Source: Phoronis australis
Taxonomy: Eukaryota > Animalia > Phoronida
Length of the DNA stretch: 64,000 nt
Reading direction: 5' to 3'
NCBI GenBank assembly: GCA_002633005.1
Contig: NMRA01000529.1
Location: 1 to 64,000 of the forward strand
Part shown: piece after piece, positions 5,964 to 64,000 of the stretch
How the letters are laid out: each line of letters begins with the position of its first letter
Numbering within the stretch: the first letter of the stretch is position 1
Translations under genes and position numbers: made by a program
The notes under the pieces: generated by a model
The model's input: the letters and a program-made list of their open reading frames with translations, nothing else
Told to the model about the DNA's origin: nothing
Database searches by the model: none

Positions 5964-8900
5964 TTAAGATCTGTAGTTGGTGAATGAAGGGCTTTGTCTG
6001 AAATTAAAGATATACATGACAGACAAGGCATATTAAACAAAAAAAATATTCTCAAACAATGACAAACACTATTCCACAAAACAGAACACATTGAGGGCTG
6101 TTTCAGAAAAAAATGTATGGGAGGGGGGAAGGCACTTTCATTTTTTACCCACCGCCCACATTTTTATTTTATTTCTCCAACCCACGACCCATAATTTTTA
6201 ATTAGGTTGAAATATAAAATAGGGTTTTTGAGATAATCAACCTGTCTTGTCAAAAACTAAAATGGCCAACAGGAGGTGCTATGGTAGCCAAATCTGTCCA
6301 AAAATCGACTGGTGGCAAATTTCATCATGATCCGTTACGCGGTTTCAAGATAATTGACGGACAAGCAATGACTAGAGCAGTCAAAACTAACAGGGTGCCA
6401 CAAGAGTAGAATCCATTAAAAAATTGACTGGTGCCGGCACAAGCTTTCCATATACCTGTTTCGAATTTCATCGTGATCCATCAAGCAGTTTTGAGATAAT
6501 GGACAAACAAAGAATGGCTTGTCCAAAACTAAAGCAGCCAGCATGGGGTACCACGGTAGCCAAATACCTCCGAAAACCAACTGGTGCTAGCGCATTCCTG
6601 CCAAGAACCGGTACACCAAATTACATCATAATCTGCCAAGCGTTTCTTGAGATAATTGATAGACAAGAAATGATAATGACAGACGGACCGACCACAAAAT
6701 TTTTGTGTGTACAGAAAAATTCCATGTGAGATCACAACTCATGTCCGTTACCACAAACTTGCTTTTCAAAGACACCAGTGAGCAATACTTTAGGCAGCCA
6801 CCAGGTGTCTCTGTCCATCATGTGTCTGTAATTCCAATATTTTTTCAATTTCATGGATTTACGAATCGCAAACTGTCTCCATGAACGCTTATAAGCTGCT
6901 ACGCCAAGTGAATATTGGCTTTTGTCAGTCTCACTCCTCATACTTTTCATTTAAAAATCATTAAATATTCTCAGATGTGTTAACACCAGTTTAGTGTCTG
7001 TATTTTCATTCTAATGTGACTGCAGTACCAAACGTTTCCCATGACTAGACTAATGGCATAGTGTACTTATTGCACTCAGTACACTAGCAACCTGGGCTTG
7101 TTTTGATGTTTGTTGGATATTTTTTGGGTATCTGCGGAGTGAATTTTTGGTGAGTTTCAATTTCTTTAGAGAGGGTATTGAGCTCAGTGTCTAAATTTTC
7201 TTCAGAAGACAATCACCCATAAATTATTATTTCAACTGCCTTCCCCCCTCCCATAGGGATTTTAATGGAACAGTCCAGATTCTTTTCTTCAACAACTTTG
7301 TGATAATTTGGCCAATGTACGTATCTGACCTGTGCAGCAATTGAAGCCCACTCTGCTTCAACATCAATGTCTACTCTCTACAGGGAGACAAATGCGACAT
7401 CTTGCGGCAGTTTTGGACAAATACCAACAGAACAGGTTAACAGCCTAAATATCAAGTCAGCCTCTTGTTAAAGCAACAAAGAGGTCATTCTTACGGACAC
7501 GTTTTTCCAGAACTAAAATACTAAAGATGAAGCTTTGAACAGAAGCCAGCACATTTAACGAATAATTCCAGAGTCTGAGACACTCTAGACACGTACTTAT
7601 TTGAACCACAGCAATTTATAACAGTTCAGAGGTACAATGACTAATAAGGGAAAAACTTAAATAACACTCCCGTCAAACAGTGAAAAATTGCCTTTGCCTA
7701 GTGCCCATTCCAAAGTCATGAATTGAGATGTCCGCAACATACTGGAGACCTAAGGTTGAACAGGGACTCGCATATGTTCCCAAAATTTTCAGCACAATTG
7801 CATATAGCACTATGTTTAGTCACTAATTTAACTGTTATGTTTCTATCACTTTATCTTTATTGAGAGCACTTGCTCTACTAATGACAGATACATTCTGAAA
7901 ACTGTGCTTTTATCTGATAAAAATAAACAGAATTAGTCCTAAAAAGGACGGGTGCTACATGAAAATATCCTTATTAATTTTCAAAATAATATTAAAAATT
8001 CAACTGAATGTTTTCACCTGGTACATGTATATAAAAGGGCTGAAGTTGATGTGACAAGGAAGACAAAACAGTAGAAGAAATGCAAATGCACTGGAAATTT
8101 AGGGAATATAGTTGAGGCTATATTGGGACTGTATCATGCAAACTGGCCACTGGGTTAAAGGTCGTAAGTTCAGACAGTCGTAACTTTGATATTAATACCG
8201 GCAAAATTCAATAATGGGGCTTGTGAAGGCAATGTTCAGTCTCAATATTGATCAATTTCACATCAGTTGCAACTTTTTATCTATTCTGAAAAAAAGCAGT
8301 GTAAGTTCTGTAAACAACGTGCCTATAACCAAAATGGCGGCGGCGGTGATTATCACATTTAGTGCATTTGAATGACCACACCTTGGACTCCAACAATATA
8401 GACCATGATTAAAAACCTTAAAGTAAGCAACATTTTACCCAATTTGTCCAAAGTTCGAGCCACCTCCTCCAAGATTACCAAAAGAGGGTGTATCACCACC
8501 TTGAGCCATGCTACCGAACGTGGGCGATGCCTGGGCCAGTGCACCAAATGAGGGAGCTTGAGAACTGTTGCCAAAGCTGAAATGGAACATCACTTGACGT
8601 GTGATATCATGGAAATACACTAGACATGTTTTATTGGCAGGTACACATGCCATGGAAATATACTGGACTTTGTTTAACGGCAGGTACACATGCCATGGAA
8701 ATATACTGGACTTTGTTTAATGGCAGGTACACATGCCATGGAAATATACTGGACTTTGTTTAATGGCAGGTACACATGCCATGGAAATATACTGGACTTT
8801 GTTTAATGGCAGGTACACATGCCATGGAAATATACTGGACTTTGTTTAATGGCAGGTACACATGCCATGGAAATATACTGGACTTTGTTTAATGGCAGGT

Positions 8901-11900
8901 ACACATGCCATGGAAATATACTGGACTTTGTTTAATGGCAGGTACACATGCCATGGAAATATACTGGACTTTGTTTAATGGCAGGTACANATAAATGACC
9001 CAGAATTCACTGTCATGACGACTGGGTGGAAATCGAATTCATCGCCACGGTAGTCTTCCCTCTTTACTGAGAATGAATTGGTAATGTGGCCAAGTCATAA
9101 TATAGTCATTTTTTGATGTTAACAGAGTTAGTCGTCATGACAGAGAGAGTTATTTTATCTGATTACTTTTGAAATGTAGATCAAAGCTCAAAGTGTGTAC
9201 TTAAAAATCATTCAATTTCAAAGAATCGTTTTTTATTTCACAACAGACAAATATGATTGTATAATACTACTAGACAAACATGACTTATGGATTGCTCACT
9301 TAACTACATAGCACATTCTTTTTAGGGACACCATGTTTGGTACTTGAAAAAACTTACAGGACAGAGTTCCTTTTACAACGGTTACCACTCAATCTTTCTA
9401 TTGAATCAACGGAGAGAAAACTGCCAGTGTCCCTTAATCTTGATTAAAAACACATAAGAGATGCTCTAAGTATATATAAGCTCACTTCTTCAATAACAAA
9501 TCATCTAGAACATAAGTCTTGTTTACAAATTAAACACAATAACACTAAATAATAAAAAGACAAAGTGTAATGAAGCTTGTTAAAGGGGACTTGAAAGCTC
9601 GCAATAACTAGATAGCTGCAACACCACAGTCAAGGGTGACACACACTCAGATGAACCAGCACTATATCAACACAACATACCATCAATAATCAGACGAAAC
9701 AACCAGCAATTCCCGTCATGACGACTGAGAGAAAGATTAATTCTCGTCATGACAGGTGTCAGTGCTAGCATAATTCACCATCAGAGAAGATAGAATGGAA
9801 AGTCATGATTGGGAAATGATATGTTGTCGCCTTGCTTTTGACTGGCACTGAGTGCATGCACTGTGTGCAGGTATGACAAAACCATCATGAGTGCTTTTTA
9901 ACATGTACATGTAATTTGTCAAGTCATTCTCCTTATGACAAATGGGAAGGCCTAGAAATGAGAAAATGCATGGTGCACCCGCTACACAGAATTAAGTTTC
10001 TTTCAAATACATACATACCCTGAGGAATCACCATTTGAGCCAAACACAGCACTGCCCGATGGAAAACCACCTCCAAACGTTGGCGTTCCTCCAAATGGCG
10101 ATGTCGCTCCAAAGGTAGGCGCACCACCAAATGTGCCGCCTGGACTGCCAAACTGTGGACCACTGCCAAAGGATGGTGCTCCACCAAAGCCTGAAAAATT
10201 ATGAAAAATTAATAGGTTCCCATTACAGCACATAAAATCAAGTTAACTTGTAAGTTGTTGACTGGACAGCTAAGAGACCATGACGCAGAGCTGCTGTGCA
10301 TATACTTTTCATGGTTCTTAAAACAACAGAAAATTCCAATGTCAGAAAAAATTCCTTTACAATGAAACAAAACAATGCAGTCACCTGTTCCACTACTGGA
10401 TGTGCCAAATCCTCCGAAGCCTTGTGACATCACGGTAGCGCCACCTGCAGTAAATGCTGATGACCCCGAGGAGGGGCTTGAGAGCGACTGACCAAATGTT
10501 CCCTGGGTGGGACCAAATAAGTCTGGAAGTAGTGATGAATAGTTTAATACTTACGACTGCGTACTAATAATTAAGTTCAAGATGGGTGCATTTTAATAGA
10601 ATTGAAAATTAACAAAGACAGAAAAAGTTCCTGTCTCCTTGTCTGTCCTTGGCAAAGTTGACTGCATCAAATATGCTAAGTTTAATTCTAAGCTTCTCAT
10701 TGTTATTGCCACACAGTAATCCCCTAGCAAGGCATATTTCCACACAGTTAGCTCCAGGCATGACCTATTTATTGCTTTTCTAGTACTCCAAATATGTGCC
10801 CAGGCACACATTCGGAAACGTTAAATGTGCAAGCAACACGAAAGGGAATGAGGACCGACAAGTGAAGTTAAGAGAGTTGATGGTACTCGTGGTACAATAA
10901 GTGTAGTGAAGCGCCATCTATTGCATTCCAACATATTGATTAAGCTACCAAATCTGTATGTTTTTTGGCTGTAATGGAAGACTCTCCACTATTAAATTAG
11001 TTGTGTTAATATCTGAATAGCTGTTGTTACTATCATGGCATACTACTGTTAGCTAAGTTTATTTGGTGGAGTAGTTGTCCTTACTATGGCCTACTACAGT
11101 TAGTTTTGTTTTGAATTAACATTTAACGCTTAATGACACTGTTAATTTTGGGAGAACCTACAAACGATCCAATTTTTAATTGCGGCTCTGAGAGCAGACC
11201 CATTAGCACAGATTCGTAAATTTTACAAACAATGCAAAATGTGCCTTTATTTGGCACAAGGGGACCTGTTCACCTAAATTCCGACAAGTGGTGTACAGGC
11301 CGTCACTGTGAAGACAGAATACAATAGTCAGTGTATACAGTCTGTCACTGTGAAGACAGAATACAACAGTTAGTGTAATAGGCCATCACTGTGAAAACAG
11401 AATACAAGTCAGTGTATACAGGCGGTCACTGTGAAGACAGAATACAACAGTCAGTGTAATAGGCCGTCACTGTGAAGACAGAATACAACAGTCAGTGTAT
11501 ACAGGCGGTCACTGTGAAGACAGAATACAACAGTCAGTGTAATAGGCCATCACTGTGAAGACAGAATACAACAGTCAGTGTAATAGGCCATCACTGTGAA
11601 GACAGAATACAACAGTCAGTGTATACAGGCCATCACTGTGAAGACAGAATACAACAGTCAGTGAATACAACACAGCTTTGTACATGACTGATGTCTGGTC
11701 TTGAAACATGATTACGCCCAGTTTAATAAAAGTGCTATGCAGTTAGATGTCGAATCAACACACAAGTTTAACTTACATATTTATTTTGATACTCACATGT
11801 TTGGGAGTATTGCTAAAAATACTAAGTTAACTAAAAGATAGCATGGGAAATACTTAATGGTGTGAAAGGGGTATCAACCATTTGGTAATGAATTGGCTCA

Positions 11901-14900
11901 CATACCATGCTTTTGCTACACGCTTTGCTTTATTGACTAACTTTCCAGTAGCAATGGTGTGAATAGGGGTATCAACCATTTGGTAATGAATTGGCTCACA
12001 TACCATGCTTTTGCTACACGCTTTGCTTTATTGACTAACTTTCCAGTAGCAATGGTGTGACTATTTAGAACTAGACACCAGTGACGTCTAGAGGATGAGG
12101 AGGTGAATTAAAAATGCATCACTTCTAATCACATACACTGGAGAAGGAACTTTTACTACACCACCCACTGAAAAGAAGAAGTACCTCCTGGCACAGCTAG
12201 GTGGCGCTAAGAGTCACCAGTCTCGAGATCAGTCTGAATTTTCCCACTGGCAGGGAGCTGATGACAGGGACATAATACCCACATATAAGCATGTAACACC
12301 TGTGCACCTGAGCGTATGAATCCTATTGACTAAGGACTAGTGAAATGGCAATCTGGCGAGGTCAGCGGATGTTTCGAAAATAACAATTATCGTTGACATA
12401 CCCAGTATATACTAGGAACAGCTCATGATTGTAAAACTTGTACATTCCAACGAATGAAGTTTGAACAAGTCCTTCAGGCAACAACGTTATGAAAAATACT
12501 GAAATGACTTCTCAAAAAGCATTGAGTAAGTGCAATTATTATTTTTGTCCAAAACTGGTGAGATTTTACACCAGCATGATACTGGTGAAGACACCTATTT
12601 GCATTGTGCAGAATTAGTAAAAAAACACGTTCCATAGGTGAGAGTCACACAGTGCAAACTTACTGGATGTACTGTTTGGTGTAATAGGGGTATTGATGCC
12701 AAATGGATTCTGACTGGCCTTCTCCGCACTAGGCTTTCCCCCCAGCCCTCCAAACAAGCCACTGCCACCAGATGGAGTGGAGATCCCTGATGAACAAAAA
12801 TAATTAAGAATGACTTTCATTAGCGCATAGTCATTGTATTGGAATTGGGCTTTCAACAGCACAATAAATGTACTTGAGCACTGTTTAACACTATATTAAC
12901 TTGGGAGGTCCCATTTCACACAACAGCGAGTGTCGAGTATTTGTCAATTTGCAAACTCCGCAACAAATAGAGTCGCGAGCTAAGACAAGTAAACAATTCT
13001 TATTTTCTATAAATCAACTCATTCTCATTTTATCTTACTTTGAAACTGGCTATTTTTGATTCACGAGTGAAGCTCAATACATCTTTCAACAAAATAATGC
13101 AGCTCTAAAACAAAATGAAATTTGCATACATCAGGCTTTTTCATAGACCATAATTTGATTTTCCACAACAATGCAATGTAAAGCAAGATTTAATCAAGAA
13201 AAACCTTAGGCTGCTAATTTGCACTGCTTGGATTGTTGCCAACAATTCAGTCTATACTTAAAGACAGAGAATAGAGAGTATACAACTTATAGTTAACACT
13301 ATAATGCTAAGGAGGTCCACATACCTGATCCAAAAATGCCGGTGGTGGAGGACGCAGAACTACCAAAAGTGGGTTGAGACTGTCCAAACACTCCGGGGGT
13401 TGAAGTGCTTGTCTGTCCGAATATGGACCCTGAACCTGTAGACTGACCAAACAGTGGTGTCCCACTGGCGGCTGGTTGGCTAAAACCAAATATGGGAGGA
13501 GCAGAACTGGCTGGAGGCTGACCAAAAGGGGGCGCTGCGGATGTTGTCTGACCAAAAACAGGAGTCGAGCTAGAAGTTGTCTGGCCAAACATGCCACCAG
13601 TAGGTGTCGTTGCTTGCGCAAAGAGAGGAGTTGTCATCTGACCAAAGGTGTTAGCACTTGAAGATTGACCAAAGATACCAGAGCCTCCACTCCCGAACTT
13701 CCCAAATACAGACGTTGAGGACAATGAGGAGTCTGATGGATGGTCACTCACAGTTGAGGCTAGTCCTGTTGATTGTCTAAAGTCAAAACCTGTGCCTGTA
13801 GTTGTGGCTGCAGAGGAAGTTTGACCAATCGTGATAGAGCCCGACGAAACTGCTGCATTGCCCAATGTTGAAGTAGCCTGTTGACCAAACACAGATGTTG
13901 TCTCACTTTCGGACTTTCCAAACATAAAAGCTGAGCCAGAAGATGTTGTGGTTGCAGGCAACTTGACCTGACCAAAGAGTCCTGTGCCACCAGTGCTGAC
14001 TTTCCCAAAAGTAAAAGTTGGCTGACTGGACGTGACAACAGTCGCAGAGGTTGCTGATTTATCTGGAGCAAACAGAGAACTGTCTGCTACAGCAGCTGCT
14101 GTAGAGCTTGTGGTAGGGGATTGGTCCGAAGTCGACTCAGATTCGTCATCGGCAGACACCTGGCTCACCACTGTCCCACCATCCGATCTGCCACCACCAG
14201 ACTGAAAATTATCACTAGATGTCGATTGCCTGAATATTGAAATACTTGTTGTTGGTTTGCCAGCTTCTGCGTTGGTGGTTTTGACAGATTCAGATGTTGG
14301 CTGCTCGAACACAACAGAGGGCGTTGGTGTTGGTGTTGTAGTCACAACATCAGACAAGGTGGTATCAGTCCCAGCCTGTGGTGCAAACAGAGGTACCTTA
14401 ACTTTGGATGATGGCTTCTCCAGTGGTGCAACGTCGCTGGAGGCTGATTCAACAGTCACATCGCCAGTGGGCTGTCCACCAAATACAGACTTCTCAGCAG
14501 TGGGTTTACCAAATAGTGGCTTCTCTCCACTGGACGACTGGCCAAAAAGTGGCGTTGAACCTGCTGGTGGCTGCTTCTCAAATGACACTGCAGTCTCACT
14601 ATTACTGGGAACGTCTATGCTCTCACTAGATGGAGGTTCGTTTTTAACTTCGTCAACTGTCTGATTAGACTCAACGTCCACGTCTGACAGATCCTCCGAG
14701 TTCTCTTCAAGATCAAGAGCAGTCTCCGGCTTAGACACTTCAGCATTGCTGATGTCCGCAGATGTTGAGCGTGATTCGTCAGATGGCTTAGTCACTGTCG
14801 CTGAAGCTGGAGGCTGACCAAAAATACCTCCACTAGATGGCAGTGATGTTCCAAAGGATGGTGTGGTCTGGCCTAAGTTGAATGTTGCTTTCCCAGATGA

Positions 14901-17900
14901 CACTCCGCCAAATACAGATGCAGACATAGAGGATTTCTGTCCGAAGGAGAATACGCCACTGGACAATTTCCCTGATGAACCGACGCCATTGCTGTCATTG
15001 GAGACAGGAACAACTCCATTAACAACATGAGGAGATTCAGTGGGGACAAGAGAGGCATTACCCAACACAGCTGGGCTGCTAGTCACTGACTGCGATTTAT
15101 TAAGCAGGAATGGGGTAGAACCATTCGATGGCAGGCCAAAGGTGAAGGGCTTAGCAGCAGAGGGTTTCTCCGAATCTTTAGGTATTGAGGCAAGAGTGTC
15201 TGAAATGAAGACAAAAATGAGTTTTTACACCTTAAATAGAAAAAAGTACCGTAATCAGACAAAATACCATTTTCGTACGATGATGGCTAAATTGACTGGC
15301 AACACATTCTTAACGTGTATTTAAGACAAAAGACACCCCGGGATCCAAAGCCAGCTAATATGATCGTACCTTGAACAACTGAGGATTTTCCAGCATCATT
15401 GACAGTAGGTGGCGCAGTCGTCTTGCCAAACTGAAATCCTGAACTATTCACTGGTTTGGGAGAATTGAAGGAGAAACCTAGAAAATGCCAGACTCCAGTT
15501 AAATTCTGGTACTGTGCAAGAACTTATCAAAATAAAATGACACGTTGAAAAACAGCTCAAATGTACAAAATCGTAACTAAAGCTCGTTTCAATTCTGGCA
15601 AAATCACGAAAACGTTAACAGATGTTACTCCACGCACTTTGTCCATTAAATAATAACAAGCCTGTAATGACACCACAATAAAGTGGCTAAATTTTGACAA
15701 AAATTAATAATTTATTACAACAAAAATTTTACTAAGTTGCTAAATAATCTTGGCAAAAAGTTTGGCAGAGACTGAGAGTTCTTTCTAAGTCTGTGTACTA
15801 AATTTTGATAACTAAACTGTAGAGCAGAACAGCCTTGTGGGTTCCGCACAATATAAGTTGACGACGTTTTAACCTAAAACTTCTTCCATATGACTGAAAA
15901 ACTTTAAATTTAATTTAGACAACTTAATAATATGAAAATGGTCTAGACTAATTGCTCCTTACTCTTGACCACAGTACACTAATTGCTCCTTACTCTTGAC
16001 CACAGTACACTAATTGCTCCTTACTCTTGACCACAGTACACTGTTGCTTCAATTCAGTCGCAAGCCGATGTGTCATGGCTGACCACATCTTGAGCAACAA
16101 CAAATTGCCAGATATTTTTTCCAAACCCAGAAACGGCTTGCCACCTCAGCAAGGAACAAACTGAGGTCAATTGTTGACTGTAAAAGGTCTAAATCAAACA
16201 CTTGATTCTTTGATAAAAGAAGTAACAATATACATGTTGCACCTTTAAGGACATTTCAATCCAATGTTATTTCAACAAGAAACATTCCTTAATGTGCTTC
16301 ACTGTTTCACGTTCCAGTGCACCTTTCGGAAAAATTACACATTCACTGCCAAAATGCGCCAATTGAAGAGTTGGGTACTTGGCTGTTCCTGACCTACTTA
16401 AACTTGATTTCCATGAGAGATAACACCACCTTGTTTACGAGGCTGACTCCATATGATGGTTCAAATTTAAATCAAATTTTAACAGCTAAGGTGTCCCAAA
16501 AAGATCATCAGATAACTGTTACACTATATAAATTCCATGCTATAACAGAAAAACCCACCAGACTGAGTTGCTACACTGCTTTCAGAAGTCAACAGTTCAG
16601 CCAGAATGCTGCTCTCGCTAGAACTGGCGGTCCCAGTGGATGGCACTGATGCTACGATGGCTGGTGATGGACTGATGATCTGAGTGGTCGACAGAGGTGG
16701 AAAAATGGATGCAGGCTGAGCGACGGAGGCAGACGTATCTACTGGCAAACTAGATGAAGGTGTCTTGACAGAAAATGTAGTCTTGCCTGCAAAGAACCCT
16801 ATGAACAATCATCACAAAACATGAAATGAAGGAAAAAAACTTTTCGAAAATCCACACTGCTTTTCTACAAAACTTAACTCATCTACTTCTATTAGAAAAC
16901 TGACTTTTGGAGTGCTATGGGTCATGGCAAGGAGATGATGCTTATCTATTAACACGTTACAAAACATTAACATTTAACACAGCATGCCAGCTTACAGAAG
17001 ACTAAGTTTCTCCTTTCCAGTGCAACGTCCAAAATGACCAAAAGGGTGTGCCTACAGTACTCCGCTGTGTACGGCAATCAATTCATGCCAGCACATCTCA
17101 GCCATAGACCCTTGCATCACATTTCATCAAAATCTGTCACGCTGTTTTGTCAATTATCAACCAAATATTTTGTCAAAACCTTAACTGTCAAAACCATTGT
17201 GCTACGGCAGTGAAATCTGTACATAATTAAACTAGTGCTGACACAGGGCATCCTCGCATTATATCCCTATGTCAAGTAGCATCATAATTTGTCAAGCCGT
17301 TCTGACAATCAAGTTGTTGAAATTAAAACGGCCAACAAGGGGTGCCACAGTAGCTAAATCCCAGGAGCATCCACGTCATCAACTCTTGTGTCAAGTTTCA
17401 TCAAAAACTATCAATTTAATATCAAAATGTAATGACAATAGGTGAAAGACGAGGAAAATCTCACCAAAAATTAAAATGACCAAAAGCGGGTGCTAGGGAA
17501 GGAAACTCCATCCCAAAAGGATTTGATGCCACATTTCCAACTTTTATCTCAAGGTAAAATTCATCAAGTCATCTCAACAAAATTTGATGGATACAGAATT
17601 TCTTGTTGAAAACTAAAGTGGCCAATAGGGGGTGCCACCATTGTCATATCTGGTCGAAAACTGACAGGTGTTGGTGTATTCTGAACACCTACATAACTGT
17701 GAGTCAGGTTAACATAAATTCATGAAACTGATAAACCAAATACTGAAGGACAAGGAATTTCCTGTCAAAAACTAAAAACCTCAATTTTGGCTGCCACGGT
17801 GGTCAAATCTGTATGATAATTGACTAGAGTTGGTAATCTCCCACCACATATCTTTGGGTCAAGTTCCTGCATGGTATTGTGTCAAAAATTCCTGATGTTG

Positions 17901-38900: not shown

Positions 38901-41523
38901 ACTAAAGTTCGAAATGATTGCTAGGTTATTTTGAGATAAAATTTGTCAAAATATGCTTGGTCTTGTCTCCAAACAACTGGTGTACAGACTGATACAGTAA
39001 GCACACTTCATTGGTGACTATACCTGTATCTGTTCCAACAAACACCAGTCCATACGTCGATGCTACAGACAACAGCTGTGTGTAGCTCCCGCTCTTGAGA
39101 TCTTCAGTGATCCGCAGTTGACAGAGCAATTTGAAATAGAAATCCTGCAGAGAATCGAGTAAAACTATGAAGAATCTGTATTGAATGATTGAAACTTTTG
39201 GTAGATTACTTAAATGAGACAGTGCATAACTCATTTGGCCATAGGGCAATAATTACTGTTTGCTCACTTGGTTAAGATGATCAATTCTTGAGCTGCAGAT
39301 TGGGGATTTCATTCTTGCCAAGGACTGCCATGTAATCAGGGCACTTGAATCTTCTGCAGAATTTTTTGGTCAAGTAGAAATCCCCCACCCCTAATGACGA
39401 CCAGTTCCACACGCGGTCACCAGCTCTCACCAGCAAAGTCTCAAGTAACCAAAGTATTGAAGTGATGTATGGAGTTGTTGAGGGTAATTTTGTGTAATCT
39501 CGAAATATTTTTCATAGAGGGATCGGGTCATTATTTCGCCCCAAAATTGAAGCACTGAGGGCCATGCTTATTTATGATTTTAAAACATTGCCTACCAACA
39601 ACTGTCCAGGAGATGGAAGGAGAGGGGCCGACCTGATGGTTAATGGAATTTACCTGGAATTATTCTAGGAAATGTGAAGTACTCCGATACAACAGCCAAG
39701 GTGAAATTTCTGCCACATAGATATATTTGTGACCTTAAATAATGGTCCACCAGGGTTTAAGAAATATATTTTAAATCCGAAATGTTATGCAGCAAATTGA
39801 TGAGAGACCGAGAACAATTAGGAAACTCCCTTTGGATTAAAAGCAGTTACATTTTATCTTCTACAGGTTTAGATTTAGTAAAAATAAGACCTAAGGTTAT
39901 TTGTATTGGCTGAAAAATGTAATTTCAAGGGTGTGACGGATGTACAAATTTGCCCTGCAACTGTAGCACAATTTCTGACTTAACAAATAATCCCGGGGAT
40001 CTAAAATTTTGGTCAATAGCATTGAGTAGCAAGTTACAAGAGAACCTGAAATTATTTTAAGTTTGATTAAAAACTTTTATTGCAACTAAACTTTTTACCT
40101 CTTTTTTGAGACGGACGAACAGCACTACTTGATGTCAAGGAGTTGGATTTTTACCTCAAGAGGTCGATAACATGTTGCATTTGCAATATTATTTTCATAT
40201 AAAATTTGGGATTCATGTTATTGCACAAATTTGATAATATTGTAAAACATTTTTTTAGGGTCATAGTGCCCTCCCCCCCCTCCAAAATGATTCCGCTTTA
40301 TTTCAATTGTAATGTAGGAAAACATGGGACCTGAAACTAGAGCCAACTAGAAATGTTAAAGTAGTCACAATTTTAATGTTTTGTGTCCAGGTTGACCATT
40401 TCACAGAAATGCCCCTATAATAATTTCCTGAAGTAATAAGAACCATAACCATAAAAGGAGTTTAAATTCAATGTCTGGATATACTTCATCGACTAAATAT
40501 AATTGATGAAACCTTATCTCTAACATGGCCTGAACAGAGCCCAATGACTCGGAACTGAGAGTGTCCAAAAATATACACCCGAATAGTGATTTTTGGCTAT
40601 AATTTTCTAAAAATTATCAGAACAAAACTTCTACCATGAAAGATTATTTTCTTTGGATTTGTCGGATTCAAATAGTGGAACCATTAGTGCCGTAGGTTCG
40701 ATTACTAGTCAGGAAACTTATAAATTTAATTATCACGCCTAATTCAATTTCATGACATTCCACGAACACTGTCTGTATACACAGTGAGTTTAAGTTGTAA
40801 CAAACAGGGCACTTGTCGGATATGCTGTAACAGTCCCTGATTTAGAGAACCAGTTTCATTCACTAGTAACGGGCCCGTTGTGCTGTATGTGAACTTGGAA
40901 TCCTGCTTAATCTCAAGATTAAGCGGAAGTGAGTGTTGCGTGAACTTGCAACTTGACAAGTTCACTCAAATAATCACGTTCATGTTCATAAAAATTTGCA
41001 CTGCACTAAATCAACTTACATTTGAAATAAATAATGTCAATTTTAACCAACTTTTTCAACTACTAGCGATCAGTTTCACCAAACAACAATTGATTTAGCC
41101 ATTCACATATTCCTTAGCCTTAGGACCTTAGGTTCCAGTGACACAAATTACGGTAAATGAGAAAATGGTTGATCGCGAGGTCAATAATTATACATTGAAA
41201 AAAATCTTTTCACCAAACAAAATTTCACCTTTTTGCCTGGTTCTCTAAATCATTGACGGCTATATCCGACCACCCCGTCCAGTGCCCAGCAACACTACCA
41301 GTAACACACACTGACACAGTCAGTGCCACAGACTGGCAGTGGCACTGATAGGCAATGACCATCGCCTCTGTTGGCCCGAAGCAGAGGCGATGGTCATTGC
41401 CTATGGCACTGACTGATTCTCGAGTTGTTGAGCAGGATCAGTTTCTGCCAAAGTCTACAGTCAATACAATACCTTGACCTCCCTCTCTTCCGGCGGATGT
41501 GCTGAAGGGTTGTTCATGGTCAT
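5964..41523 (-). CDS. NUP214: Nucleoporin NUP214 (beta-propeller, coiled coil, FG repeats), ~1940 aa, 29 exons
   Basis: Phase-consistent GT-AG exons: 41473-41523, 39024-39144, 38358-38587, 37150-37348, 36345-36464, 35396-35499 (duplicate at 34999-35102), 34222-34319, 33591-33660, 31719-31845, 29036-29128, 26433-26527, 25303-25360, 24024-24622, 23265-23414, 22586-22718, 21770-21893, 21112-21297, 20035-20195, 19535-19678, 19076-19123, 18273-18371, 16559-16786, 15370-15477, 13325-15199, 12664-12786, 10385-10522, 10019-10190, 8439-8576, 5964-5997. Diagnostic motifs: PEEREVKDFYF, VCWSPKGKQLVAG, VLDVFW, RAEFP, LSTEGVL, SPAKQAKLRQFL, GLFGGLGGKPS, C-terminal FG repeats. Small exons may have been missed, including in the gap. 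Confidence 0.95.
6094..7277. mobile_element. Degenerate TIR element (Harbinger-like ends) containing a ~150-bp-unit repeat relic
   Basis: GGGCTGTTTCA..TATGGGAGGGGGGAAGGCA at the left end is inverted at the right end (TGCCTTCCCCCTCCCATA..TGGAACAGTCC). No clean TSD. Confidence 0.45.
8636..8989. repeat. Minisatellite, 43-bp unit, ~8 copies
   Basis: GGCAGGTACACATGCCATGGAAATATACTGGACTTTGTTTAAT repeated with no spacers; ends at an N (8990). Confidence 0.95.
11295..11665. repeat. Minisatellite, ~41-43-bp unit, ~9 copies
   Basis: GCCATCACTGTGAAGACAGAATACAACAGTCAGTGTA(ATA/TACA)G in tandem. Confidence 0.93.
11857..12060. repeat. ~96-bp tandem duplication
   Basis: ATGGTGTGAA..AGGGGTATCAACCATTTGG..TTCCAGTAGCA occurs twice. 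Confidence 0.9.
13325..15199 (-). CDS. NUP214: NUP214 large Ser/Thr-rich FG-repeat exon (1875 nt)
   Basis: Covers the 595-aa ORF with many FGQ/FGK repeats. Acceptor at 15200-15201 and donor GTATGT at 13324; phase 1/1. Confidence 0.93.
15947..16042. repeat. 31-bp unit x3
   Basis: ACTAATTGCTCCTTACTCTTGACCACAGTAC repeated. Confidence 0.9.
18059..18178. repeat. 29-bp unit x4
   Basis: ACAAGGAGCCGATGGGATGCTGACTGATT repeated. Confidence 0.9.
22840..22996. repeat. 48-bp unit x3, related to the start of the adjacent NUP214 exon
   Basis: TTTAAGTTGGTGAATGCACCTGAGGATGTGGCCTGTAGGTCTGGCTAG; shares AGTTGGTGAAT (IHQLK on the - strand) with exon 22586-22718. Confidence 0.9.
25949..26288. repeat. Palindromic minisatellite, 31-bp unit, ~11 copies
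   Basis: GATTCTCCTCACTGTCTGACAGTCATGAGGT in tandem; each unit contains the inverted repeat CTCACTGTC-T-GACAGT(C/G)ATGAG. Confidence 0.95.
27173..28653 (-). mobile_element. Helentron-associated non-autonomous element (HINE/DINE-1-like), copy 1, spans N-gap
   Basis: Sub-terminal IRs ATGCGCCC/GGGCGCAT, hairpin GCGTCCACATATAAATATGTGGGCGC, (GGAC)n microsatellite, and stem-loop CAACGCGGAGCGTTG next to AAACAAGAG. Confidence 0.7.
28679..29092. repeat. ~88-bp tandem repeat x5 made of the 3' half of a NUP214 exon plus its donor
   Basis: TTACCTTCTTGTGT..AACATGGTACATCAGTAGAACGCCCTCTGTGGACAACAT at 28679, 28766, 28855, 28949 and 29032 (the real exon). Confidence 0.92.
29694..31438 (-). mobile_element. 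HINE/DINE-1-like element, copy 2, with an internal ~150-bp satellite array
   Basis: Same ends as copy 1 (ACAAGAGCAACGCAGAGCGTTGAAATGCGCCC ... CCACATATAAATATGTGGGCGCATAAAAA). The interior has ~11 diverged units, most containing CCACTAGRNGGC. Confidence 0.8.
32706..32968. repeat. 41-bp unit x6
   Basis: CACCAGCTTGGCTAGTGGCAGTGGTGCTACTAGTGGATCTA in tandem. Confidence 0.92.
34904..35700. repeat. 397-bp near-identical tandem duplication including a NUP214 exon (probable assembly artefact)
   Basis: 34904-35299 is repeated from 35301. The junction is a single N (35300) right after a (GGGA)n tract. Confidence 0.85.
41349..41403. mobile_element. 55-bp minimal MULE-like element with 9-bp TSD
   Basis: TAGGCAATGACCATCGCCTCTG-11 nt-CAGAGGCGATGGTCATTGCCTA flanked by TGGCACTGA at 41340-41348 and 41404-41412. 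The terminus is the same as that of the element at 60575. Confidence 0.85.
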
Positions 41524-61514: not shown

Positions 61515-62392
61515 ACGGCGACGGTGGTACAGGCAAATTTCTCGTTGGCCGACTGGTTAAGAAACCTGGCTTGGAAGTGGAAGGTGTTAGTTTCAAAACT
61601 TGAAGACTAAGTGACTTTTCACTGCAAAAGTTACAGCAGCTGAAAACGAGCGGGGTTTTAGTTACATTTTCACAAATTCACACTGCTCGCAAGGGCGCCG
61701 CCATTTTCTCAGTGCACCCATGTATTGTTCTGGGCTTATTATAAAAATGTTAAAACTTGATAAATCGATGAGTTCTAGAGCTAAAAAAAACCTAAAATTT
61801 CCGGAATTTCTTCTCACTAAAAGATTATAATGCATTTATGTCTTACATTCTTAAAACATAATTTGGCCAGAATTCGTGTGCTGAAAACCGGAAGTCAGAA
61901 ATACGTTCTCTGTGGTATGTGGACTGGACGGAGAACGGTCTCAGGAATAGCTCTCAGAACTGAGTTGAGACAAGGCTCTGCTTATTGCTGACGCACAATG
62001 CCAATATCCCAGGCAGATATTTTCTTTGTAAGTATTTAAAACCGTTATCTGTTCTGAAAAGAAATATGGCATCTCCTTCTTGTCTTGTAGTTCCCTGCCC
62101 TGCGATTGTTTGGCGCACAGGCGTCCTCAGCTTCTGATCGTCCCCAATACACTACATATAATACTACAAGGTATGACACTCCCGACTAGAAATTCCACGG
62201 GTGCTTCACTTCAGCTGTCCATAGCAAACATAAAACTCAATAAATGTACACAAAACCGGGGTTCAACAAACCATGAGGAATTGTTCTTTCTCCCAATACC
62301 ATTCACGGTGTCCTGTTACGGCGACTTCGTAAGAAATTCGCAGTCAAAGAACAAAAATTTTCACAAAAAGCCCCCACACACTTTCACCCTGG

Positions 62393-62843
62393 GCCCGTTA
62401 GCGAATAGCTAACAGAGGCTCATATGATTCACCGGAAGCACATCTACAACATCCCCCTCTTCCCTACGGAACGGGCATGCCACCAGGAAGGTGAACACCC
62501 GGAGTGGATGTCTCGCATACAGGTCATCAACGTCTCTTGGTACCTTTACCACCACAACACAGGTGAACACAAGGTAGTCTCTCAAACAGGTCCTTGACTC
62601 CTGGAACCTTCCATGTGCGCCTTCCCGAGGTCCACGGGTACTAGTTGGCAGTGCTTCATCAGTAGATCATCCGTTTGCCGACTAGGCCATTTGTAGTAAT
62701 AGCCGAGATTACCCGACCCGGGAATCGAACCAGCGACCCCCATAAAACTGGCAAGCGTGCTAACCATTCAGCAAATAGGCAATTGCCCATTAGCGAGTAG
62801 CTAACAGAGGCTCATGTGATTCACCGGAAGCACATCTACAACA
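62393..62843 (-). mobile_element. Miniature non-autonomous LTR retrotransposon (TRIM) with a tRNA-like sequence inside the LTR
   Basis: 5' LTR 62843-62692 (TGTTGTA...TACTACA). PBS TGGCCTAGTCGGCA at 62689-62676. 240-bp interior. PPT AGGGAAGAGGGGGA at 62465-62452. Truncated 3' LTR 62451-62393. A/B boxes lie at 62711-62780. Confidence 0.8.
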
Positions 62844-64000
62844 TTATGATGACTCGAGTCGCGACCGAGTTCAACATCAGCGAAAGGTAGGCAATTACGT
62901 TGTCCTGGATGCCACAGGAATACACGGGTGATAGTACATCCCCACCAAAAGTTACAAATTTCAAAGTACAGGAAATAAAATCAAATGAAACATGCATATA
63001 TATAATATATGCATATTATGCACATGGAGTTATAATTAACACATGGAGACGATTCAGTCAAGATAATTTGAACAAATCGATGAAAATCTGTTGCGGTTTG
63101 CTCGAGTTTCTCTTACTGGGTGCCATCTTGAAATCCTGCATGTTGATAAATAAGAAGTCCAAGGGACACAAATCTTACAAAATATATTTCACCTGATACA
63201 TCCCATGCTATTTTGCAAGTGTAGTGTGCTTCACACAGTCTCGCGCTAGCCTTTGCCTAACCTATGTGACTCATGCACTCGCCAGTTAAAATACTTTGCG
63301 GTCGTCGTGCGCGTGGTGAAAAAGTTAACGTTGACCAAAAAAGTGGAGTTGGAATTCTTCGCCAAAGATATGTATAGAAGTAGAAAGGACCACTGAGAAA
63401 GTAAGCGCTATTTTAAGTGATAGTTTTAAATGTGGAATGTATTTTTGACGAGGTGAAAACTCCTCATCAGTGACTGCTTTTGGCTTACTGCCCCTGTAAA
63501 ATACACGGGACAAAATTCCTACAGAAAGTGATGGGAAGTATTGTAGCCCCTAAATGGCCAACCGAGGGGCTACGTGTTGCCCTAAACGAAAGAAGTTCGA
63601 CTCTAAAACAGAAATGTGACGGTGTCAGCGTCCTTACCGAGCAATAGAGACGGTGATGCTCCCATAGGGCCTTCATATGCGGAAGCTTTTTCAATGAATT
63701 ATTACTGACACTGCAGTGGTGGACGCTTAAGCTGAACGTTAATTCGCATTGGCAGCCTAGCAAAAATCCCAGGTGGTCAAACGAAATCTGAGGTCACCAA
63801 AACAAAATCCCAGGATGCCAAATAGGTTATTATTTCAATCTGACTCCACTATTTTCTGAATCCTCTTGTGGTGAACCTTAACCCTTATAGTGCTTTACAC
63901 TGTAACCAGTGTCCAGACCAGCCAGGCTGGCTAGTTTTAGGTCAAGCTCAATATTAACACCATCAATTGTTTTAATCAAAAATTTAACAAACCAGTTTGA

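What the first reader, a model, noticed from the sequence alone, without database searches (positions are those of the whole stretch)
62393..62843. Miniature LTR retroelement whose LTR contains a tRNA-derived Pol III promoter (SINE-TRIM hybrid)
Seen on the - strand: a 152-bp LTR bounded by TGTTGTA...TACTACA; 2 nt later TGGCCTAGTCGGCA; a 240-bp interior with no credible ORF; the polypurine tract AGGGAAGAGGGGGA; then a second copy of the first 59 bp of the LTR with 3 differences. The LTR contains a tRNA-like segment with A box TTGCTGAATGG and B box GGTTCGATTCC. Known: the putative PBS matches the complement of the metazoan tRNA-Ser 3' end (TGGCGTAGTCGGCA) at 13/14 nt. Small-RNA-bearing TRIMs exist but are rare (Cassandra and Helenus carry 5S rRNA, Ajax carries tRNA). 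Inference: a Pol III-transcribed, tRNA-Ser-primed element mobilised in trans. It could be a known Ajax-type family or a new one.
Basis: partly seen in the sequence, partly recalled or inferred. Interest (0 to 1): 0.8.

Follow-up and report, generated by a model that had tools for sequence, protein, structure and literature searches.

The report
Helenus-type mini retrotransposon, new family
This is a clipped, decayed copy of a tiny gene-less jumping element whose end repeats carry tRNA-gene promoter motifs, so it is likely copied by RNA polymerase III and moved by a larger helper element; the kind was described in 2024 as Helenus, and this appears to be an unlisted family of it.

Summary
Public reads show a dispersed family. 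Contigs break into unrelated flanks exactly at the LTR ends, other copies join the PPT to a near-complete 3' LTR, and most carry the tRNA-Ser-matching PBS base that this copy lost. A second organism holds the family too. An ordinary SINE with a local duplication is thereby refuted. None of the listed families has these lengths or this PBS. Ty3/gypsy elements in other organisms use the same PBS. Not shown: target-site duplication, Pol III transcription, the helper in this host. The host is an animal whose FAM78 gene falls outside the pteriomorph bivalves; its lineage is otherwise unresolved. The scan has noted Helenus-type elements on other DNA before. Verdict: new member of a known kind.

The parts
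62692..62843 (-). 5' LTR, 152 bp, TG...CA
   Evidence: heterogeneous flanks begin exactly at both ends in other copies
62764..62774 (-). Pol III A box (LTR nt 70-80); this copy has a private change at the second position
   Evidence: about 99% of depth in other copies has the canonical purine at 62773
62744..62747 (-). only run of four T on the element's sense strand (LTR nt 97-100); candidate Pol III terminator in the 3' LTR (inferred)
   Evidence: no variant at 20% or more listed here among the 40 rows shown (3 rows not shown)
62721..62731 (-). Pol III B box (LTR nt 113-123)
   Evidence: the one common variant (62723) falls on the degenerate pyrimidine position
62676..62689 (-). primer-binding site complementary to the 3' end of a tRNA-Ser (13 of 14 here)
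   Evidence: 90-96% of DNA depth in other copies carries the tRNA-matching base at 62685
62452..62691 (-). internal region, 240 bp, non-coding
62452..62465 (-). polypurine tract, 14 purines, directly before the 3' LTR
   Evidence: PPT-LTR joint in other copies
62393..62451 (-). 3' LTR, cut after 59 bp, 56 of 59 identical to the 5' LTR
62116..62392 (.). unrelated high-copy repeat that abuts the cut end of the 3' LTR (not part of the element)
   Evidence: deeper than the TRIM interior, sharp end at 62116 with 192 (X1), 92 (X2), 210 (X4) loose contig ends

Best explanation
A 3'-clipped, decayed copy of a dispersed family of non-coding miniature LTR retrotransposons with tRNA-type A and B boxes in the LTR (Helenus type), likely transcribed by Pol III and likely moved by a Ty3/gypsy helper. 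Shown: LTR, boxes, PBS, PPT, no ORF, dispersed copies with paired LTRs, presence in a second organism. Inferred cycle: Pol III would start near LTR nt 58-63 of the 5' LTR, read through the four-T run at nt 97-100 once, cross the interior (which has no four-T run), and stop at the same run in the 3' LTR, leaving a repeat of about 40 nt at both RNA ends. A host tRNA-Ser would prime minus-strand synthesis at the PBS, the PPT would prime the plus strand, and gag, RT/RNase H and integrase would come in trans from a gypsy element, with a predicted 4-bp target duplication. A full copy would be about 544 bp. This copy lost its 3' LTR beyond nt 59 where another repeat now sits, and is probably dead.
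For: Anatomy. Loose contig ends with low agreement at 62692 (X2 21, X3 22 contigs; agreement 0.38-0.39) and at 62843 (14 and 13; 0.43-0.44) (similar). PPT-to-LTR-start joint 62845>62454 in X2 (1 contig), X3 (3 contigs, up to 119 nt on the short side) and X8 (17 reads, 15 starts). X2 record 3 holds a near-whole 3' LTR (62698-62845), interior and part of a 5' LTR; X3 record 9 holds LTR-interior-LTR. Raw-read depth in X8 is 190-295 across the whole LTR, 31-109 in the interior and 14 or less just outside, which fits paired plus solo LTRs. Organism B (X6, 7 contigs laid) has the PBS and PPT junctions. The PBS motif is the start of DNA templates for human tRNA-Ser. Of 100 metagenome loci with TACA + 1-4 nt + this PBS, 30 continue the tRNA match; of 9 loci scanned, 4 (L003, L013, L067, L068) have gag then RT-RNase H, and L067 shows protease-RT-RNase H-integrase, the gypsy order. 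Of 4 loci with both LTRs, 2 have an exact 4-bp TSD, 1 has 3 of 4, 1 is too decayed. Kojima 2024 defines Helenus by this anatomy, with 4-bp TSDs and gypsy-like PBSs in animals.
Against: No TSD could be read for this family. No Pol III transcript is shown: RNA reads (X7, X8) lie on both strands, 71-83% run on into unlike sequence, and no pile-up of starts or ends is listed; these libraries are of unspecified type. ARAGORN and Rfam do not call a tRNA. The four-T run lies between the A and B boxes and could stop Pol III in the 5' LTR, and there is no T run after the B box, which many listed Helenus LTRs have. Summed DNA contig depth peaks around the A box (6500-9200 against 2000-2500 at the LTR ends), so a related family or a SINE may share that part. 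No helper was found in this host (no genome held), and the interior has no similarity to the gypsy loci beyond the LTR end and PBS.
Confidence: 0.88

Rival explanations
1. A TRIM whose LTR once captured a tRNA-derived SINE head, but which is transcribed by Pol II (own U3 promoter or read-through); the boxes are passengers.
For: RNA reads look like read-through from many loci, both strands. A four-T run sits between the boxes. Kojima states that Pol III use by Helenus is not validated.
Against: The invariant box positions show no variant at 20% or more among the rows listed for two organisms (3 rows not shown). The interior has no four-T run (weak, since absence in 240 nt is common by chance). 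The length fits Pol III elements.
Confidence: 0.2
2. An ordinary tRNA-derived SINE with a local 59-bp duplication.
For: Only 59 bp of the second LTR are present here. DNA contig depth peaks near the A box.
Against: Copies end at TG...CA, 69 nt upstream of the A box and 29 nt after the B box, with no tail; PBS, PPT and near-whole 3' LTRs occur in other copies and in a second organism.
Confidence: 0.02
3. An internally deleted copy of an autonomous gypsy element whose own LTR carries the tRNA-like part.
For: Some contigs leave the interior for long unlike sequence (loose ends at 62544 and 62563 in X2, 255 nt, 1 contig each), and interior deletions and replacements are listed.
Against: The 240-bp interior is covered end to end in X2, X3, X6 and X8, and LTR-interior-LTR contigs exist. 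No protein similarity of the interior to gypsy loci. None of 100 loci with this PBS has a B box within 400 nt upstream.
Confidence: 0.06

Closest known systems
Helenus (TRIMp3), Kojima 2024, PMC10886601 (whole main text read; supplement parts 1, 5, 6, 7, 10, 11 of 11 read, the rest by word search only)
   Same: Non-coding TRIM; TG...CA LTRs with tRNA-type boxes (TRGCY, YGG, GGTTC); PBS to a tRNA 3' end; PPT; predicted length 544 bp within 311-1263; no functional tRNA; more LTRs than interiors.
   Different: No family in Table S1 has LTR 152 / interior 240. The PBS word has 0 hits in the supplement; the two Ser primers listed have other 3' ends. No T run after the B box. The host is not shown to be one of the listed lineages.
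Mytilid Helenus-2 families (Helenus-2_MyGa, _MoPh, _LimFor); Pinna Helenus-2/3_PiNo for the tRNA-like part
   Same: Ser primer, LTR 141-156, long interior 226-268. The 9-nt LTR start occurs once in the supplement, in Helenus-2_MyGa; two 7-nt interior words occur in these interiors (2 of 3 and 2 of 7 hits). The tRNA-like part resembles the Pinna LTRs by eye.
   Different: Another Ser acceptor end. The words were picked after reading the sequences and no alignment was computed, so this is a lead only; spacing of the words is only partly alike.
Ajax and Cassandra (5S-bearing TRIMp3)
   Same: TRIM with a small-RNA-derived Pol III promoter in the LTR; Cassandra starts in the 5' LTR and stops in the 3' LTR (as described in PMC10886601).
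   Different: They carry 5S box A/IE/box C; this LTR has tRNA boxes A and B and no 5S match. Ajax uses tRNA-Leu and 5-bp TSDs.
biv-TRIM (PMC6934838, passages read)
   Same: Animal TRIM with short direct repeats.
   Different: No canonical PBS found there; here the PBS is canonical.

Membership tests
Helenus (TRIMp3) | two LTRs, TG...CA, short element | tested here: met
   (paired LTRs in other copies; here the 3' LTR is cut at nt 59); about 544 bp predicted
Helenus (TRIMp3) | tRNA-derived sequence with boxes A and B inside the LTR | tested here: met
   at the motif level; ARAGORN only at a relaxed threshold, Rfam none
Helenus (TRIMp3) | PBS complementary to a tRNA 3' end right after the 5' LTR | tested here: met
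Helenus (TRIMp3) | PPT right before the 3' LTR | tested here: met
Helenus (TRIMp3) | no protein coding | tested here: met
   longest Met-started frame 29 aa
Helenus (TRIMp3) | 4-bp TSD in animals | tested here: inconclusive
   this copy lacks its 3' end; read tools give only pooled flanks; majority flank letters next to both LTR ends hint at a GWAC-like 4-nt target in some runs (agreement 0.35-0.44), but this copy's 5' flank does not fit it
Helenus (TRIMp3) | Pol III transcription (expected, not validated even for named families) | not testable with these tools
   RNA-seq reads show read-through on both strands, no discrete starts
Helenus (TRIMp3) | gypsy helper with the same PBS in the host | tested here: inconclusive
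   no host genome; gypsy elements with this PBS exist in other organisms
a named Helenus family of Kojima 2024 | sequence identity to a listed consensus | tested here: not met
   10 of 11 diagnostic words have 0 hits and 1 has an unrelated hit; no length match; line breaks in the file can hide words; Repbase and Dfam not searchable
Ajax | 5S rRNA-derived box A/IE/box C in the LTR | tested here: not met
   Ajax consensus seen
SINE2 | starts at the tRNA head, ends in a LINE-like or simple-repeat tail | tested here: not met

The most novel reading that the evidence does not exclude
The family extends Helenus to an animal lineage not listed in 2024 (FAM78 places the host nearest bryozoans), uses a tRNA-Ser acceptor not yet recorded for Helenus, and is the sister of the Ser-primed, long-interior mytilid Helenus-2 families. 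That would make one Pol III-driven TRIM lineage as old as the split of these lophotrochozoan phyla (or moved between them), with a single four-T run inside the tRNA-like part serving as a read-through site in the 5' LTR and as terminator in the 3' LTR.
Probability: 0.2. Interest if true: 0.5.

Novelty: new member of a known kind. Interest (0 to 1): 0.3.

Why it matters
It adds a family, a primer type and possibly a host lineage to a class named only in 2024, whose central claim (Pol III transcription of tRNA-bearing TRIMs) is still untested. The single four-T run gives a sharp prediction for transcript ends. It does not change the picture of the class, and this copy is truncated and decayed.

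Tried and rejected
No whole genome is held, so copy number, TSDs and a helper could not be read from an assembly. Summed contig depth is not a copy number and was not used as one. The junction pattern of this family found 0 matches in metagenome contigs. A broader PBS pattern gave 100 loci; none has a B box within 400 nt upstream, none matches the element beyond LTR end and PBS, and many are chance matches in bacterial genes (e.g. L008, L021). No RNA holder was listed by the run index. ARAGORN and Rfam found nothing. A Nup214 exon search for host placement found nothing. One sub-step crashed and was redone. A paper search on repeats of one guessed host lineage gave nothing usable (listing only). 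Searches of the scan's notes by sequence, near place and relatives were empty; three notes from this genome concern other elements. No alignment with the paper's consensus sequences was computed, which leaves the link to mytilid Helenus-2 open.

Full report
Observation. The rest of the second LTR is absent from the window. The PBS match is far beyond chance (p about 3e-7 at that place). The A/B pattern occurs once in the window and in none of 100 shuffles, though it was fitted after the fact. No tRNA or Rfam family is called; ARAGORN gives a poor cloverleaf only when relaxed.

The family. No genome is held, so I used sequencing runs: 9 were listed and 7 were laid (X1, X2, X4, X7; X2, X3, X6, X8; X1 and X4 are one sample, and any of the DNA runs may be the window's source). 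In one search, 360 and 301 contigs of X2 and X3 lie on the element, mostly 80-95% alike. Contigs run into unrelated sequence exactly at the LTR ends: 21 and 22 contigs at 62692, 14 and 13 at 62843, agreement 0.38-0.44 (only the best-supported rows are shown). With the second LTR left out of the stretch, a joint from the LTR start back to the PPT appears in X2 (1 contig), X3 (3 contigs, up to 119 nt on the short side) and X8 (17 reads). X2 record 3 holds a near-whole 3' LTR with both boxes, the interior and part of a 5' LTR; X3 record 9 holds LTR-interior-LTR. Raw-read depth in X8 is 190-295 over the whole LTR, 31-109 in the interior and falls to 14 or less outside. The window copy is decayed: at its one PBS mismatch 90-96% of DNA depth carries the tRNA-matching base, and at its odd A-box position about 99% carries the canonical purine. 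Organism B (X6, 7 contigs) has the LTR, interior and both junctions. Against a clean picture: summed DNA contig depth peaks near the A box (6500-9200 against 2000-2500 at the LTR ends), which may be an assembly effect or a related family sharing that part. The 3' LTR here ends where another high-copy repeat (62116-62392) begins; no TSD can be read.

Primer and helper. The PBS motif opens DNA templates for human tRNA-Ser in PMC3299991 and for an in-vitro tRNA in PMC7449687 (passages only; found). A scan for TACA + 1-4 nt + this PBS gave 100 metagenome loci; 30 continue the tRNA match. Of 9 loci whose ORFs were scanned, L003, L013, L067 and L068 carry gag then RT-RNase H, L067 with protease-RT-RNase H-integrase (gypsy order); L010 and L036 have gag-like parts; L008, L018 and L021 show no retroelement domain. 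Of four loci with both LTRs, L001 and L032 have exact 4-bp TSDs, L029 3 of 4, L052 none readable. These are other organisms' elements: they show that gypsy elements use this primer, not which element moves this family. None has a B box upstream or shares sequence with the TRIM beyond LTR end and PBS.

Mechanism. Shown: LTR-PBS-interior-PPT-LTR, no coding, dispersal, two organisms. Inferred: Pol III starts just upstream of the A box (LTR nt about 58-63), reads through the four-T run at nt 97-100, the only one on the sense strand, and stops at the same run in the 3' LTR, giving a terminal repeat of about 40 nt; tRNA-Ser primes, and a gypsy element supplies the proteins. Cassandra is described as starting and stopping inside its LTR small-RNA part in the same way. 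RNA reads give no support either way: both strands, 83% (X7) and 71% (X8) running on into unlike sequence, no pile-up of ends, library type unspecified. The four-T run between the boxes is also an argument against Pol III use.

Comparison. Helenus is defined by structure, and every structural feature that I could test is met; the TSD is open. No listed family has LTR 152 / interior 240 or this PBS. By eye and by post-hoc word hits, the mytilid Ser-primed Helenus-2 families are the closest in layout; no alignment was computed. Paper searches (listings) showed no later description of further families; PMC12859917 only mentions the class (passages), and biv-TRIM lacks a canonical PBS (PMC6934838, passages). 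Repbase and Dfam could not be searched, so the family may already be there.

Host. The window holds a FAM78 exon (518-1147) and a Nup214-like FG gene (my label from the translated exons; no Pfam hit for the two exons scanned). FAM78 is at most 60% identical to any of 28 homologues aligned (a bryozoan). A 29-row tree leaves it unplaced outside the starred mollusc and chordate clades. An 18-row tree (11 rows dropped: 6 unnamed, 2 long, 3 redundant) groups it with bryozoans at 80/75. A clade with pteriomorph bivalves is rejected (p-AU 0.00035; group named after seeing the first tree), a clade with fishes is not (0.33). One gene with paralogues: the lineage is unresolved.

Verdict. A real, well-supported, new family of a known kind. 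The scan's notes hold 36 findings with the same key words in at least 12 other genomes (unchecked, not used as support). Interest 0.3.

Noticed in passing
window:62116-62392: High-copy repeat with a sharp end at 62116 and possibly degenerate terminal inverted repeats (5 of 8 letters); it abuts the cut 3' LTR. Pooled flank letters before 62116 recur across runs, which may be a target preference.
   Followed up: partly
window:62890-63263: Another high-copy repeat (or two) just upstream of the 5' LTR, with common internal indels.
   Followed up: no
window:62393: The 3' LTR is cut at nt 59, close to the predicted Pol III start (U3/R border). Probably coincidence; unexplained.
   Followed up: no
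window:60072-61486: Cluster of nested inverted repeats (arms of about 100 nt, 93-94% complementary), foldback or MITE-like; a 42-nt part recurs at 41351-41392.
   Followed up: no
window:13299-39252: Exons of a Nup214-like FG nucleoporin on the - strand, with a 641-aa open frame at 13299-15224.
   Followed up: partly
window:518-1147: FAM78A/B-like last exon on the + strand, used for host placement.
   Followed up: yes
window:52116-52361: Weak reverse-transcriptase fragment (RVT_1 E 2e-5, below the curated cut-off), probably a decayed LINE.
   Followed up: partly
window:34904-35600: Exact 300-bp direct duplicate beside an N; probably an assembly artefact. Minisatellites of 25, 31, 41, 43, 48 and 54 nt also occur.
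   Followed up: no
L001, L029, L032: A 3.2-3.6-kb LTR element family with about 170-bp LTRs, the same tRNA-Ser PBS and 4-bp TSDs, in animal-like metagenome contigs.
   Followed up: partly
L036:1677-3956: A 760-aa gag-like (PNMA) frame behind the tRNA-Ser PBS that also hits the EABR domain (TSG101/ALIX-binding domain of CEP55, E 1e-12, above cut-off): possibly an ESCRT-binding domain captured by a retroelement gag.
   Followed up: no
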